Shown here one piece after another: positions 2,747 to 4,941 of a stretch of 4,978 bases of DNA (within the stretch, counting starts at the first letter, position 1; each line of letters starts with the position of its first letter). The notes beneath the pieces were generated by a model. The model was not told the origin of the DNA. It made no database searches and saw only the letters and a program-made list of their open reading frames with translations. The position numbers and the translations under genes are program-made. Source of the DNA: a virus (taxonomy: Duplodnaviria; Heunggongvirae; Uroviricota; Caudoviricetes); IMG/VR virus record IMGVR_UViG_2671180417_000017, positions 1 to 4,978 of that record. One strand, written 5' to 3'.

Positions 2747-2768
2747 CGATATGGGAATTCCCATATCG
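2747..2768. repeat. perfect 22-bp palindrome CGATATGGGAATTCCCATATCG
   Basis: Read directly: left half CGATATGGGAA is the exact reverse complement of right half TTCCCATATCG. Lies between the small-peptide stop (2738) and the putative hok promoter -35 (2781). Confidence 0.9.
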
Positions 2769-2780
2769 GGTAAAAACGGT

Positions 2781-2808
2781 TTGCGGTAAAGCGAGAGTTA
2801 AGTAGAAT
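2781..2808 (+). promoter_or_regulatory. putative sigma70 promoter of hok/mok mRNA (-35 TTGCGG, 16-bp spacer, -10 TAGAAT)
   Basis: TTGCGG 2781-2786 and TAGAAT 2803-2808. The predicted start near 2813-2816 coincides with the beginning of the 5' element GCGGGTGCTTGAGGC, which resembles the 5' end of plasmid R1 hok mRNA. Confidence 0.45.
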
Positions 2809-2859
2809 TGCTGCGGGTGCTTGAGGCTGTCTGCCTCGGGCATGCCACCGTAAGGCAGA

Positions 2860-2936
2860 CAGAGAAAAGCCCCAGTTAACATTACGCGTCCTGCAAGACG
2901 CCTAACATTAATCTGAGGCCAATTTCATGCTAGACA
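2860..2936 (-). ncRNA. sok: putative Sok-like antisense RNA of the hok locus (boundaries approximate)
   Basis: On the - strand, -35 TTGCCT (plus 2965-2970) and -10 TAACCT (plus 2942-2947) with a 17-bp spacer would start an antisense transcript near 2935 covering the mok SD/start (2915-2929). An imperfect hairpin (about 2881-2906) follows but has no clean U-tract, so the 3' end is uncertain. Confidence 0.3.
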
Positions 2937-3139
2937 CATGTAGGTTAGCCTCTTACGCGCCGAAAGGCAAGGAGAAGCAGGCTATGAAGCAGCAAAAGGC
3001 GATGTTAGTCGCCCTGATCGTCATCTGTATTACCGTCATTGTGACGGCACTGGTAACGAGGAAAGACCTCTGCGAGGTACGAATCCGAACCGGCCAGACG
3101 GAGGTCACTGTCTTCACAGCTTACGAACCTGAGGAGTAA
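2927..3139 (+). CDS. mok: Mok-like N-terminally extended reading frame (70 aa) in frame with hok
   Basis: ATG 2927 with GAGG (2915-2918) 8 nt upstream. N-terminus MLDTCRLAS... resembles chromosomal MokC (MLNTCR...) from memory. Same frame and stop as hok. Confidence 0.5.
   Translation: MLDTCRLASYAPKGKEKQAMKQQKAMLVALIVICITVIVTALVTRKDLCEVRIRTGQTEVTVFTAYEPEE
2984..3139 (+). CDS. hok: Hok/Gef-family type I toxin (51 aa), HokD/RelF-like
   Basis: ATG 2984 with AAGGAG (2969-2974) 9 nt upstream. Protein MKQQKAMLVALIVICITVIVTALVTRKDLCEVRIRTGQTEVTVFTAYEPEE is near-identical to my recollection of E. coli HokD/HokC: TM helix followed by the conserved RKDLCEV...TEV..F.AYE periplasmic tail. TAA 3137-3139. 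Confidence 0.9.
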   Translation: MKQQKAMLVALIVICITVIVTALVTRKDLCEVRIRTGQTEVTVFTAYEPEE

Positions 3140-3207
3140 GAGACCAGGCGAGGGAGAAATCCCTCGCCACCTCTGATGTGTCAGGCATCCTCAACGCACC
3201 CGCACTT

Positions 3208-3229
3208 AACCCGCTTCGGCGGGTTTTTT
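3208..3229 (+). terminator. rho-independent terminator of hok mRNA (stem CCCGC, loop TTCG, stem GCGGG, then T6)
   Basis: AACCCGCTTCGGCGGGTTTTTT read directly: GC-rich stem, tetraloop, U-tract. Confidence 0.8.
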
Positions 3230-3348
3230 CACGTACTGTGGTTGTGAATACGATCGGTATTAGGCTATGCTAACAACATTAGCCTGACTAATTTTGTATT
3301 GACTTGATTTTTGTTAAAGAACAGGACGGAGAAGTAAGGGTACACCCA

Positions 3349-3528
3349 ATGAGCTACGCACTAAAAAAACACCCGCGATTGACTATTCCCCCTCGCGATA
3401 AAAGCGTTGTGGCAGCTCCGCGCCCGGCTATCGATGAAAATTGCACTCATCGTGAGCAGGTGAAAAATGCTTTCGATTTCGGTTTTTCTCGTTACGAGAA
3501 GGCAATGGAAGAACTTTCAAAAGTGTAA
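3349..3528 (+). CDS. putative antitoxin partner of the Doc-family toxin (59 aa; not Phd/YefM-like)
   Basis: ATG 3349 with AAGGG (3335-3339) upstream; the ORF track begins the frame at TTG 3304. Stop TAA 3526-3528 lies 18 nt before the Doc ATG, the usual antitoxin-then-toxin arrangement. Sequence MSYALKKHPRLTIPPRDKSVVAAPRPAIDENCTHREQVKNAFDFGFSRYEKAMEELSKV matches no antitoxin family I recognise. Confidence 0.6.
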   Translation: MSYALKKHPRLTIPPRDKSVVAAPRPAIDENCTHREQVKNAFDFGFSRYEKAMEELSKV

Positions 3529-3546
3529 TGATGGGTATTGTGCTCT

Positions 3547-4032
3547 ATGGCTGAGATTGTTGAAGGAGTGCACTACCTTTCGTTTGATGATCTTACCGAA
3601 ATTAATCGCCTTTTAATTGAGCTTCAAACACCAGATGAACCTGTTAGTGTGCTGAGTGTTGATAATTTAAGTTCTTCTCAGTCTCGTCCCAGCATGGTTC
3701 GATGGTATGAACAGACTAATGACATGTTTGTACTGGCATCAGTATTGATTGAAAGTCTGATTCAGAATCATCCATTTGCTAATGCAAACAAACGAACAGC
3801 TATGATGGCTGGTTATGTCTTCTTGTTGTTGAATGGCTATGAGTTAACAGCACCAGGCGATGAAATCGTGGAAATGGCAGAGGGACTGGCCTGCAAAACC
3901 TATACTCGAGAAGATCTCGAGAACTGGTTGTGTTATTGGTCTCGTGCGTATGACGGCCGGGAATTATGTAAAACAGGCGCAACTGTTGTTTTGTATGAAA
4001 CTATCAAGCTTAAAATAGAACAGCAAAACTAA
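3547..4032 (+). CDS. doc: Doc/Fic-family toxin (death-on-curing-like, predicted kinase/AMPylase fold), about 161 aa
   Basis: Motif HPFANANKRTA fits the Doc signature H-x-F-x-(D/N)-(A/G)-N-K-R, and the flanking helices (ASVLIESLIQN before, MMAGYVFLLLNGYEL after) parallel P1 Doc. Start is ATG 3547 or in-frame TTG 3538. Stop TAA 4030-4032. Confidence 0.85.
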   Translation: MAEIVEGVHYLSFDDLTEINRLLIELQTPDEPVSVLSVDNLSSSQSRPSMVRWYEQTNDMFVLASVLIESLIQNHPFANANKRTAMMAGYVFLLLNGYELTAPGDEIVEMAEGLACKTYTREDLENWLCYWSRAYDGRELCKTGATVVLYETIKLKIEQQN

Positions 4033-4048
4033 AGGTGCTTCTAATGAA

Positions 4049-4068
4049 AACCCGCTTCGGCGGGTTTT
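4049..4068. terminator. bidirectional rho-independent terminator (A-tract, CCCGC TTCG GCGGG, T-tract)
   Basis: GAAAACCCGCTTCGGCGGGTTTTGTTGT: the same 20-mer AACCCGCTTCGGCGGGTTTT as at 3208-3227. Sits between the convergent doc (+) and HTH antitoxin (-) genes, with A-run upstream and T-run downstream. Confidence 0.7.
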
Positions 4069-4082
4069 GTTGTATTGGAGTA

Positions 4083-4400
4083 TCATGATATTACCTGGAT
4101 TCCGTTTTTCTCTACGACTGAAAGAAGGCGAAGAGCGGCACCTCCCGGCCGTTTTACACCACGTTCCCAGTCTGATATCAGGTTTTTACTGACGTTGAGG
4201 TATCTGGCAAAAACAGGTTGAGACAGATGCTCTCGTTCGCGCAGTGCACGGATCCTTTCCGGAGACATTACCGGCGCTGGCTGGAGACAAGTTTCATCGA
4301 ATTCTCGCATAGTCTGTTTCGTTACTGCGCCGATATCATGAAGCGATTCCATCATTTCATGTACGGATGCAAGCGCATCACTGCGGTAATTTTTACTCAT
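4083..4400 (-). CDS. HTH-XRE family antitoxin (HigA-like), 105 aa
   Basis: ATG (plus 4398-4400) with GGAGGT SD (plus 4406-4411 reverse complement) 5 nt upstream; stop TGA (plus 4083-4085). C-terminal HTH LSQPVFARYLNVSKNLISDWERGVKRPGGAALRLL is typical of XRE-type antitoxins. Lies immediately downstream of a RelE-like toxin frame on the same strand. Confidence 0.85.
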   Translation of the reverse strand: MSKNYRSDALASVHEMMESLHDIGAVTKQTMREFDETCLQPAPVMSPERIRALREREHLSQPVFARYLNVSKNLISDWERGVKRPGGAALRLLSVVEKNGIQVIS

Positions 4401-4454
4401 TGGGTACCTCCGTAAACTGACCCTGTAGAATCAGTTGTGCCAGTTGTTCATCTG

Positions 4455-4762
4455 TTAGATTGAGTACGTGAGGAGCCCCTTCCGAAATGCACTTTCCTCA
4501 GTAGCGGTTATATTTTCACGTTCATTTTTTGCGTATGCATATACGAAAAAGGCCCTTGTGCCGACGCGATAGAAAATGATTGTGCGATAACCGCCAGATT
4601 TGCCGCCACCGACTCGTGGCAGACGTTGCTTGATAACGCCGTTACCCAGGTTTGCTGAGATAAGCCCGTTATCAGCCTGTTTAACAATTTCGCGCAGTGA
4701 TTGGTCGGATATTTTGTTTTGCGTGCAAGTCGCTCAAACCAGGCGTTTTTAAAAATGCGCAT
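4455..4762 (-). pseudogene. RelE/ParE-superfamily toxin (DUF1044-like, GGGKSGGYRT motif) disrupted by a 1-nt frameshift in an A4 run
   Basis: Frame A from ATG (plus 4760-4762) encodes MRIFKNAWFERLARK... and ends at TAA plus 4508-4510. The -1 frame from about plus 4721 encodes KISDQSLREIVKQADNGLISANLGNGVIKQRLPRVGGGKSGGYRTIIFYRVGTRAFFVYAYAKNERENITATEESAFRKGLLTYSI, ending at TAA plus 4455-4457. Both pieces look like one conserved toxin; the junction is the TTTT run at plus 4717-4720. Adding one A restores an ORF of about 101 aa. Confidence 0.65.
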
Positions 4763-4784
4763 TTTTTGTTCCGTTATTAATGTA

Positions 4785-4799
4785 TAACACATAGTGTTA
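4785..4799. promoter_or_regulatory. perfect inverted repeat TAACAC-ATA-GTGTTA, candidate operator in the divergent promoter region of the RelE-like/HTH module
   Basis: Read directly; lies 23-37 nt upstream of the toxin ATG on the - strand and overlaps the likely promoter. XRE antitoxin dimers typically bind such dyads. Confidence 0.45.
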
Positions 4800-4829
4800 C
4801 ATTGCGTAGGGATCTGCAATGCCATCAGT

Positions 4830-4859
4830 TTGACAACGTCGCGTGTTCGGGGCTATATT
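4830..4859 (+). promoter_or_regulatory. putative sigma70 promoter (-35 TTGACA, 18-bp spacer, -10 TATATT) reading rightward
   Basis: Consensus -35 TTGACA 4830-4835 and TATATT 4854-4859. Divergent from the - strand TA module. Confidence 0.4.
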
Positions 4860-4920
4860 CCTCACGCGCCAGCAAAACCTGGCGTCGGGATTAGCACCCC
4901 GGATATCGAAACGGTGCATA

Positions 4921-4941
4921 ACCGCGCTGGCGGTTTTTTTA
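4921..4941 (+). terminator. putative rho-independent terminator (ACCGC GCTG GCGGT, then T7)
   Basis: Short GC-rich hairpin followed by TTTTTTT 4934-4940, about 75 nt downstream of the putative promoter. Confidence 0.5.

What the first reader, a model, noticed from the sequence alone, without database searches (positions are those of the whole stretch)
2813..3203. hok mRNA 5' end and 3' end are complementary (tac / fbi-like fold-back), and a 5' metastable hairpin is visible
5' GCGGGTGCTTGAGG (2813-2826) pairs with the reverse complement of CCTCAACGCACCCGC (3189-3203) over 14 bp with one bulge, just before the terminator. This is the fold-back inhibition architecture known from plasmid R1 hok mRNA, which keeps the full-length mRNA inert until 3' processing. 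The 5' region also forms alternative hairpins (GAGGC-TGTCT-GCCTC at 2823-2837, or GTCTGCCT / AGGCAGAC at 2829-2860), consistent with the metastable structures described for hok mRNAs. The chromosomal or prophage copy therefore appears fully regulated rather than decayed.
Basis: partly seen in the sequence, partly recalled or inferred. Interest (0 to 1): 0.5.

Follow-up and report, generated by a model that had tools for sequence, protein, structure and literature searches.

The report
Ordinary hok/sok toxin mRNA fold-back
The two ends of a small toxin mRNA in an E. coli prophage pair with each other just as in the textbook hok/sok plasmid-addiction system, so this is a correct reading of an intact but already well-known regulatory design.

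Summary
2813-2826 is complementary to 3189-3203 (14 bp, C3195 bulged), far beyond chance. It dominates the predicted fold of the full-length RNA. The helix is kept in 35 related loci, with compensatory changes.

[quoted passage not shown] It is 100% identical to strain AST198, where RefSeq annotates hokD. The Rfam hok-leader model scores 116.9 bits and Pfam Hok/Gef 79.7 bits.

Predicted folds reproduce the published R1 scheme. The full-length RNA has tac/fbi pairing and ucb pairing with the mok Shine-Dalgarno. The 3'-shortened RNA has tac/ucb and mok-SD/dcb pairing.

- The first two pairs (2813-2814) are not conserved, and the transcript probably starts at G2815. The RNA helix is then about 12 bp.
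- The metastable hairpin is 11 bp (2817-2827/2833-2843), not 5 bp. It covaries together with fbi. The second hairpin (2827-2862) is a stable element present in both folds.

Transcript ends, 3' processing and killing are inferred, not shown. This is already known and of low interest.

The parts
2781..2808 (+). Putative hok promoter: weak -35 TTGCGG (2781-2786), 16-nt spacer, -10 TAGAAT (2803-2808)
   Evidence: Read from the sequence. A TAnAAT-like box sits at the same distance from GGGTGC in nearly all related loci, while the sequence upstream of it diverges. P1-like phage and plasmid homology starts exactly at 2803. The consensus scanner did not detect it. Inferred, not mapped.
2815..2826 (+). 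tac element, the 5' end of the hok mRNA. The DNA complementarity extends to 2813. The predicted start is G2815.
   Evidence: Rfam RF01794 model position 1 aligns to 2815. The pairs at 2813 and 2814 are not conserved, while 2815-2826 pair in nearly all 35 loci. The -10 box ends 7 nt upstream.
2817..2843 (+). Metastable 5' hairpin: 11 bp, 2817-2827 with 2833-2843, loop TGTCT. It sequesters tac in the nascent chain.
   Evidence: It is the MFE of prefixes of 25-50 nt and is replaced from 55 nt onward. 94.5% of cells are paired in 35 loci. Pair 2818-2842 is UA in 20 and CG in 12. The 5-bp core is paired in 175 of 175 cells.
2827..2862 (+). Stable hairpin (upper part of the tac stem-loop), present in both the full-length and the shortened folds. 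Mutually exclusive with the metastable hairpin.
   Evidence: 89.8% paired, and 4 pairs have changes on both sides.
2864..2875 (+). ucb / anti-SD. It pairs with the mok SD region (2913-2926) in the full-length fold and with tac (2815-2822, via 2867-2873) in the shortened fold.
   Evidence: Pair lists. The tac/ucb helix is 98.4% paired but almost invariant. The ucb/mok-SD helix is 94.8% paired, with 2 pairs changed on both sides.
2865..2935 (-). Sok-like antisense RNA (about 71 nt): a 9-nt single-stranded 5' tail, a long hairpin and a U-rich 3' end
   Evidence: Coordinates were transferred from the annotated sokW of phage 933W, which is 91% identical. The fold is -32.9 kcal/mol, z = -6.7. sokW RNA was detected and shown to be antitoxic in Sp5 (PMC8621323). 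The ends in this copy are inferred.
2942..2970 (-). Putative sok promoter: -35 TTGCCT (2970-2965), 17-nt spacer, -10 TAACCT (2947-2942)
   Evidence: Read from the minus strand. The positions correspond to conserved blocks in the alignment. The -35 overlaps the hok SD. The scanner did not detect it. Inferred.
2915..2952 (+). mok SD GAGG (2915-2918) and the Sok-target hairpin. GAGGC (2915-2919) pairs with dcb GCCUC (2948-2952) in the shortened fold. The loop CUAGACA (2930-2936) contains a YUNR motif.
   Evidence: The five outer pairs are invariant in 35 loci. It matches the Rfam consensus structure.
2927..3139 (+). mok-like leader reading frame (70 codons), in frame with hok
   Evidence: ORF list. 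It matches the arrangement of the annotated mokW/hokW of 933W.
2984..3139 (+). hok toxin gene (51 aa, HokD allele). SD GGAG lies at 2971-2974.
   Evidence: Pfam PF01848 Hok/Gef, 79.7 bits against a cut-off of 22. RefSeq annotates the identical sequence as hokD.
3147..3168 (+). GC-rich hairpin GGCGAGGGA-GAAA-TCCCTCGCC, the presumed roadblock for 3' exonucleolytic trimming
   Evidence: An equivalent GGCGGGG...CCCCGCC hairpin is present in all 35 loci. The role is inferred from R1 (PMC1635323, PMC9841398).
3189..3203 (+). fbi element. It pairs with tac, C3195 is bulged, and 3202-3203 are probably beyond the RNA helix.
   Evidence: It lies 44-65 nt after the stop codon in every intact locus examined.
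3207..3229 (+). Intrinsic terminator: AACCCGC-TTCG-GCGGGTT followed by a T-run
   Evidence: Sequence and the last hairpin of the MFE. The scanner missed it, probably because the longest stem absorbs two T's.

Best explanation
This is a complete hok/sok-family type I toxin-antitoxin cassette (hokD/hokW type) carried as a moron in the early region of a lambdoid E. coli prophage. The 5'-3' complementarity is its tac/fbi fold-back.

Proposed pathway, inferred from R1 and from the folds computed here:
1. Transcription starts near G2815 from a weak promoter.
2. The nascent 5' end is first trapped in an 11-bp metastable hairpin (2817-2843), which keeps tac from pairing with ucb.
3. Once the 3' UTR is made, fbi (3189-3201) pairs with tac. 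This leaves ucb (2864-2875) free to sequester the mok Shine-Dalgarno, so the full-length RNA is neither translated nor bound by Sok.
4. Slow 3' exonucleolytic trimming back to the 3147-3168 hairpin removes fbi.
5. tac then pairs with ucb (2867-2873). The mok SD moves into the target hairpin (2915-2952), which permits mok-coupled hok translation and also Sok binding.
6. The unstable antisense Sok (about 2935 to 2865, minus strand) normally destroys this active form. When Sok is lost, Hok is made and damages the inner membrane.
For: Identity:
- Rfam RF01794 scores 116.9 bits over the full model at 2815-2989.
- Pfam Hok/Gef scores 79.7 bits.
- The region is 100% identical to a RefSeq hokD locus, inside a prophage between replication genes and ninB...Q.
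- It is 91% identical to the annotated hokW/mokW/sokW of 933W.

Fold-back:
- The duplex is -33.6 kcal/mol against -22.3 +/- 2.3 for shuffles, with 0 of 1000 reaching it.
- It is present in the MFE. Pair probabilities are at least 0.97, and abolishing it costs 18-24 kcal/mol.

Switch: the MFE without the last 41 nt forms tac/ucb and mok-SD/dcb, while the full-length MFE forms ucb/mok-SD. This matches the published R1 model (PMC9841398; PMC1635323; PMC3851714).

Conservation in 35 loci from Escherichia, Kluyvera, Citrobacter, Pantoea, Photorhabdus and two plasmid types:
- tac positions 2815-2826 pair with fbi in nearly all.
- Position 2818 is U-A in 20, C-G in 13 and U-G in 1.
- Position 2826 is G-C in 22 and A-U in 11.
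- Position 2825 is G-C in 26, G-U in 7 and A-U in 1.
- The same tac positions covary with their metastable-hairpin partners.
- 82% of cells are paired in register, against 30-51% when the partner is slid.

G-U pairs argue for RNA of the + strand.

The close homologue hokW-sokW is an experimentally shown toxin/antitoxin pair. A full-length hokW mRNA and shorter species were seen on Northern blots (PMC8621323).
Against: - Nothing has been measured for this copy. The transcript start, the 3' end, processing, Sok expression and toxicity are all inferred.
- Neither promoter reaches the consensus scanner's threshold. The hok -35 matches 3 of 6 and the sok -10 matches 3 of 6.
- The covariation rests on few independent events, essentially an Escherichia-like clade against a Photorhabdus/Pantoea/plasmid clade plus single cases. 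The shuffle control does not correct for relatedness.
- The tac/ucb helix is invariant, so it has no covariation support.
- Intact chromosomal hok loci tested earlier did not mediate post-segregational killing (Pedersen & Gerdes 1999, as summarised in bioRxiv 10.1101/2025.08.07.668861).
Confidence: 0.92

Rival explanations
1. The RNA architecture is real, but the module is functionally silent or works differently from plasmid post-segregational killing. One option is that it helps lysis and phage release on prophage induction, as reported for hokW-sokW. Another is that it acts in phage defence.
For: [quoted passage not shown] - Here the cassette lies in the same orientation as the early rightward genes.
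Against: This concerns the biological role, not the fold-back itself. No data exist for this copy. Every sequence element needed for the classical mechanism is intact.
Confidence: 0.35
2. The inverted repeat is a DNA-level feature, such as terminal inverted repeats or a recombination site that bounds a mobile hok cassette, rather than an RNA helix.
For: The cassette is clearly mobile: it occurs in many prophage, P1-like and plasmid contexts. Homology to P1-like elements runs exactly from 2803 to 3201, ending at the repeat.
Against: - G-U (G-T) pairs are tolerated at several positions and serve as intermediates (7 at 2825, U-G in L042). They would be C-A mismatches on the other strand or in DNA.
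- The 5' arm simultaneously covaries with two other partners within the RNA.
- The promoter -10 box lies outside the repeat but inside the conserved module.
- No target-site duplications or transposase are associated with it.
Confidence: 0.03
3. The complementarity is a chance match in a GC-rich structured region.
For: None beyond the general frequency of short inverted repeats. Ten other imperfect ones of 13-21 nt occur in the window.
Against: None of 1000 shuffles reached the duplex energy. The same pairing is found at the same place, 44-65 nt after the stop codon, in 35 loci with compensatory changes.
Confidence: 0.01

Closest known systems
hok/sok (parB) of plasmid R1: the tac/fbi fold-back, ucb/dcb switch, metastable 5' hairpin and 3' processing (Thisted 1995; Franch & Gerdes 1996; Franch, Gultyaev & Gerdes 1997; Gultyaev 1997; reviewed in PMC9841398)
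   Same: - The order of elements is the same: promoter, tac, metastable partner, ucb, Sok region, mok SD/ATG, dcb and sok promoter, hok SD/ATG, roadblock hairpin, fbi, terminator.
- The predicted full-length and shortened folds are the same.
- An R1-type locus (L062) aligns element by element and pairs GGCGCUU with AAGCGCC 53 nt after the stop codon.
   Different: - The Hok protein matched R1-type plasmid Hok at about 43% identity (tblastn).
- tac/fbi has a U-A pair where R1 has C-G, and a bulged C.
- mok is in frame with hok here (57 nt apart). In R1 the start-codon positions given in PMC9841398 (mok T117/G118, hok G176) put the two starts 58 nt apart, hence in different frames; this is my inference from those positions.
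- The Sok hairpin is longer, with a 16-nt insertion relative to the Rfam consensus.
- It lies in a prophage, not a plasmid.
hokW-sokW-mokW of Stx2 phages 933W / Sp5
   Same: The DNA is 91% identical over 2771-3211. The tac and fbi sequences are identical. sokW, mokW and hokW are annotated. It has been shown experimentally to be a type I TA system (PMC8621323).
   Different: - It sits at a different place in the phage genome.
- The sequence after fbi differs, and the window's terminator is absent.
- The C-terminus of the toxin differs (VFVDYESEK against VFTAYEPEE).
- The published hokW work did not address the fold-back.
hokD (relF) of E. coli K-12, downstream of relBE in the Qin prophage
   Same: The toxin is 94% identical. 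The 3' UTR is the same, including fbi and the terminator.
   Different: The K-12-type copy has relE ending 71 nt before the hokD ATG. It has no tac, ucb, Sok region or mok start, and gives no Rfam hit. The window copy has all of them.
hokC (gef)/mokC/sokC and Photorhabdus chromosomal hok loci
   Same: The architecture is the same. Rfam scores are 100-112 bits. tac/fbi and the metastable hairpin are conserved.
   Different: They lack the extended Sok hairpin. They have wobble or compensated pairs at 2818, 2825 and 2826. Photorhabdus has no bulge in the helix.

Membership tests
[quoted passage not shown] | Small hydrophobic Hok/Gef toxin ORF of about 50 aa | tested here: met
   Pfam PF01848 scores 79.7 bits against a cut-off of 22, with the full 42-position profile matched. 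RefSeq names the identical protein HokD.
[quoted passage not shown] | hok mRNA leader with the family's conserved sequence and structure | tested here: met
   Rfam RF01794 scores 116.9 bits against a gathering score of 59, covering model positions 1-157, on the hok-sense strand.
[quoted passage not shown] | 5'-3' end pairing (tac/fbi) that closes the full-length mRNA | tested here: met
   Duplex energy against shuffles. MFE and pair probabilities. Conservation with compensatory changes in 35 loci.
[quoted passage not shown] | Alternative pairing of ucb with the mok SD (full-length) or with tac (3'-shortened), and mok SD/dcb pairing in the shortened form | tested here: met
   Predicted for the window. 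The helices are 94.8-98.4% paired across loci. The tac/ucb helix is invariant, so it has no covariation support.
[quoted passage not shown] | Metastable 5' hairpin that sequesters tac in the nascent transcript | tested here: met
   It is the MFE of 25-50-nt prefixes. The 11-bp helix is 94.5% paired, and pair 2818-2842 is UA in 20 and CG in 12. Kinetic trapping itself was not simulated or measured.
[quoted passage not shown] | Overlapping mok leader frame with its own SD, upstream of hok | tested here: met
   GAGG at 2915-2918 and ATG at 2927, giving a 70-codon ORF that ends at the hok stop. This matches the annotated mokW.
[quoted passage not shown] | cis-encoded antisense Sok RNA covering the mok start, with its own promoter | tested here: inconclusive
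   Present by homology to the annotated and experimentally detected sokW. The fold is good, z = -6.7. The promoter is only a weak consensus match (TTGCCT-17-TAACCT) and the scanner did not find it. Expression is not testable here.
[quoted passage not shown] | Slow 3' exonucleolytic processing that removes fbi and activates the mRNA | not testable with these tools
   Only the roadblock hairpin (3147-3168) and the terminator are visible. Shorter hokW RNAs were seen by Northern blot but not characterised.
[quoted passage not shown] | Toxicity of Hok and its neutralisation by Sok; post-segregational killing | not testable with these tools
   Shown for the hokW-sokW homologue and for HokD overexpression, but not for this copy.

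The most novel reading that the evidence does not exclude
Because the cassette lies in the early rightward operon of the prophage and in the same orientation, antiterminated read-through on induction could do two things. It could silence the convergent sok promoter by transcriptional interference. It could also produce 5'-extended hok RNAs. Hok release would then be coupled to prophage induction, as a lysis-timing or abortive device, rather than to loss of the element. The tac/fbi timer would set the delay. Nothing here tests this.
Probability: 0.15. Interest if true: 0.4.

Novelty: already known. Interest (0 to 1): 0.08.

Why it matters
It matters little for discovery. The fold-back, the structural switch and the metastable hairpin of hok mRNAs have been textbook examples of RNA folding pathways since the 1990s. 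This allele is annotated in RefSeq, and sequences at least 80% identical over at least 80% of the 521-nt locus occur in 3811 of 5426 complete E. coli genomes.

Its value is as a positive control: a sequence-only reader recovered a genuine long-range RNA interaction. It also documents an intact hokD-type locus that has the 5' regulatory half missing from the K-12 hokD copy. That could serve as a natural template for studying hokD regulation.

Tried and rejected
- The repeat finder did not report the tac/fbi pair. The bulge splits it into 8-nt and 6-nt gapless arms, below the length limit. It found only the local tac/ucb composite.
- The consensus scanner found neither promoter nor the terminator. 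These were read by eye and from conservation instead.
- MAFFT puts loci with and without the bulge one column out of register on the inner half of the helix. The tool counts for that half therefore look half-broken in either register. A bulge-aware count was done in Python. That count is fitted to the structure and so leans towards it.
- The roadblock hairpin could not be counted column-wise, for the same reason.
- Locus L060, an R1-type hok next to IS150, was fetched but not used. L062 was used instead.
- L063 (relBE-hok on a plasmid) and L064 gave no Rfam hit and were left out.
- Gultyaev et al. 2000 (PMC1370018) is not held. Gultyaev 1997, Franch & Gerdes 1996, Pedersen & Gerdes 1999 and Steif & Meyer 2012 are cited only through papers that cite them and from my own knowledge.
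- Chance and DNA-level readings of the repeat were considered and rejected (see the rival explanations).
- hokA, hokB and hokE were not added to the alignment.

Full report
**Observation**

The two quoted sequences are present at the stated coordinates. GCGGGTGCTTGAGG lies at 2813-2826 and CCTCAACGCACCCGC at 3189-3203. They form 14 Watson-Crick pairs with C3195 bulged.

The most stable duplex that the first 20 nt can form anywhere in the rest of the presumed transcript is this one, at -33.6 kcal/mol. A thousand mononucleotide shuffles of the remainder gave -22.3 +/- 2.3 kcal/mol, and none reached it.

Folding 2813-3229 as RNA gives an MFE of -183.3 kcal/mol (z = -8.9) in which all 14 pairs form. 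Their ensemble probabilities are at least 0.97. Forbidding 3189-3203 from pairing costs 24 kcal/mol, or 18 if the RNA starts at 2815. A hairpin plus T-run terminator follows directly at 3207-3229.

The gapless repeat finder missed the pair because of the bulge. The consensus scanner missed the terminator and both promoters. These are limits of the tools, not evidence against the features.

**What the region is**

Rfam family RF01794 matches 2815-2989 on the + strand over its whole length, at 116.9 bits against a gathering score of 59. The family is named 'sok', but here it matches the hok-sense leader.

The 51-codon ORF at 2984-3139 is a Hok/Gef toxin (Pfam 79.7 bits).

The 521 bases around it are 100% identical to the chromosome of E. 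coli AST198, where RefSeq annotates hokD. It sits inside a lambdoid prophage, between cII and replication-type genes and ninB...Q.

Similar sequence covering at least 80% of the query is found in 3811 of 5426 complete E. coli genomes. It also occurs in Stx phages, P1-like phages and plasmids.

Phage 933W carries a 91% identical copy annotated hokW, mokW and sokW. Transferring those annotations places Sok at about 2935 to 2865 on the minus strand and the mok start at 2927, in frame with hok.

**Anatomy**

Reading the sequence with the family alignment gives the following order of elements.

| Element | Coordinates | Note |
|---|---|---|
| hok promoter | 2781-2808 | weak: TTGCGG, 16 nt, TAGAAT |
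| tac | 2815-2826 | 5' end of the mRNA |
| tac partner in the metastable hairpin | 2833-2843 | |
| stable hairpin | 2827-2862 | |
| ucb | 2864-2875 | |
| mok SD | 2915-2918 | GAGG |
| mok ATG | 2927 | |
| target hairpin | 2915-2952 | YUNR loop; dcb GCCUC at 2948-2952 |
| sok promoter (minus strand) | 2942-2970 | TTGCCT at 2970-2965, 17 nt, TAACCT at 2947-2942 |
| hok SD | 2971-2974 | |
| hok ATG | 2984 | |
| GC-rich hairpin | 3147-3168 | presumed roadblock |
| fbi | 3189-3201 | |
| terminator | 3207-3229 | |

The antisense RNA folds into a 9-nt free 5' tail plus a long hairpin and a U-rich end (-32.9 kcal/mol, z = -6.7).

**The switch**

- With them, tac pairs with fbi and ucb pairs with the mok SD region. 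The pairs are 2864-2875 with 2913-2926, which include C2870-G2918, C2871-G2917 and C2873-G2915.
- Without the last 41 nt, tac (2815-2822) pairs with AAGCCCC (2867-2873), and GAGGC (2915-2919) pairs with GCCUC (2948-2952).

This is the scheme published for R1. The full-length form has tac/fbi with the mok SD held by ucb. The truncated form has tac/ucb and mok SD/dcb. A transient structure pairs tac with a region immediately downstream (PMC9841398; PMC1635323; PMC3851714).

Prefix folding shows that transient structure here. From 25 to 50 nt the MFE is an 11-bp hairpin, 2817-2827 with 2833-2843 (down to -22.8 kcal/mol). From 55 nt it gives way to the 2827-2862 hairpin, and from 60 nt to tac/ucb.

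**Comparative test**

A scan of one genome per species returned 57 hok loci. Together with 933W, an R1-type IncF locus and an IncI2 locus, 35 distinct intact mRNAs were aligned as A1.

In the MAFFT register, 82% of tac/fbi cells pair, against 30-51% when the partner is slid by 1-3 columns. Pair 2818-3198 is U-A in 20, C-G in 13 and U-G in 1.

Some clades lack the bulge, so the inner half of the helix is out of register for about half the rows in either register. A bulge-aware count shows positions 2815-2826 paired in nearly all 35 loci:
- 2826-3189 is G-C in 22, A-U in 11 and G-U in 1.
- 2825-3190 is G-C in 26, G-U in 7 and A-U in 1.

The same tac positions covary with their partners in the metastable hairpin. 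Pair 2818-2842 is U-A in 20 and C-G in 12. Pair 2826-2834 is G-C in 11, A-U in 11 and G-U in 13. Overall 94.5% of cells pair, and the 5-bp core pairs in 175 of 175 cells. This is the coupled covariation known for the family.

The frequent G-U pairs point to RNA of the + strand rather than a DNA-level repeat.

Caveats:
- The changes separate a few clades (Escherichia-like against Photorhabdus, Pantoea and plasmids), so independent events are few.
- The shuffle control ignores relatedness.
- The Python count is fitted to the helix.
- tac/ucb is invariant and so has no covariation support.

**Refinement of the helix length**

Pairs 2813-3203 and 2814-3202 are unpaired in 18 and 22 of 35 loci. The Rfam model starts at 2815. 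The conserved -10 box ends at 2808, seven bases upstream. Homology to P1-like elements runs from 2803 to exactly 3201. The RNA therefore most likely starts at G2815, and the helix is 12 bp ending flush at C3201. This agrees with the 'blunt-ended' description for R1. It is an inference, and no transcript mapping exists.

**Intact or decayed?**

K-12-type copies (L010, L011, L026, L030, L054) have relB and relE immediately upstream, with only 71 nt between the relE stop and the hokD ATG. They lack tac, ucb and the Sok region and give no Rfam hit, although they keep fbi. Other copies carry frameshifts or truncations (L054, L058).

The window copy has every element, so 'intact' is supported at the sequence level. 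Whether it kills is unknown. The close homologue hokW-sokW is a working toxin/antitoxin pair whose Hok is released on prophage induction (PMC8621323). Some intact chromosomal hok loci did not give post-segregational killing.

**Comparison and verdict**

[quoted passage not shown] Processing and toxicity cannot be tested here.

It differs from R1 only in subfamily details:
- a U-A pair instead of C-G in the helix, and a bulged C;
- mok in frame with hok;
- a longer Sok hairpin;
- a prophage location.

The architecture, its conservation across the family and this allele's annotation are all already known. The finding is a correct reading of an ordinary feature, of low interest, and useful mainly as a positive control.

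Noticed in passing
window 3304-4825: Two more toxin-antitoxin-like modules follow hok/sok directly. One is a Fic/Doc-family 'death-on-curing' toxin (3538-4032, +) preceded by a small ORF (3349-3528). The other is an HTH/MqsA-like antitoxin (4083-4400, -) with a RelE/ParE-like toxin (4508-4825, -). That makes three TA modules in a row in the nin-like region of the prophage.
   Followed up: partly
window 4853-4940 (+): Rfam isrK (74.3 bits) and c4-a1b1 (47.4 bits) both match above their gathering scores. In the identical genome this lies upstream of ORF6N and BRO antirepressor-like genes. It looks like a C4/IsrK-type antisense-controlled antirepressor switch.
   Followed up: no
window 2747-2768: A perfect 22-bp palindrome, CGATATGGGAATTCCCATATCG, lies between the stop of the upstream small hydrophobic ORF (2634-2738) and the hok promoter. 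Homology to the 933W hokW cassette begins just after it, at 2771. Its function is unknown.
   Followed up: no
window 3122-3125: hok codon Tyr47 (UAC) followed by G forms the TACG motif reported as a TadA A-to-I editing site, which recodes Tyr to Cys in hokB/C/D/E mRNAs (bioRxiv 10.1101/2025.08.07.668861). TTACGAA is invariant in all 35 aligned loci.
   Followed up: partly
window 2919-2936: The most variable stretch of the 5' UTR among otherwise very similar paralogues is the segment complementary to the free 5' tail of Sok, together with the target loop. This would fit selection for paralogue-specific Sok recognition that avoids cross-talk.
   Followed up: no
window 2803-3201: Hits in P1-like phages and plasmids cover exactly this span, from the -10 box to the last fbi base. 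The mobile module boundary therefore coincides with the boundary of the trimmed full-length transcript.
   Followed up: partly
window 3148-3229 (+): There is a weak isrK-like Rfam match on the hok 3' UTR (31.2 bits, below the gathering score of 50). It is probably only a resemblance of hairpin plus terminator.
   Followed up: no
window 2815-2989 (+): The Rfam family called 'sok antitoxin' (RF01794) matches the hok-sense strand, and its consensus structure is the tac/ucb stem and the target hairpin. The antisense strand scores only 18 bits. An annotation taken from the family name would put Sok on the wrong strand.
   Followed up: partly
L033 1485-1633: A second full Rfam hok-leader hit (100.7 bits) lies about 480 nt downstream of the first hok in a Photorhabdus temperata contig. 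hok/sok loci are therefore in tandem there, as noted for Photorhabdus in PMC1635323.
   Followed up: no
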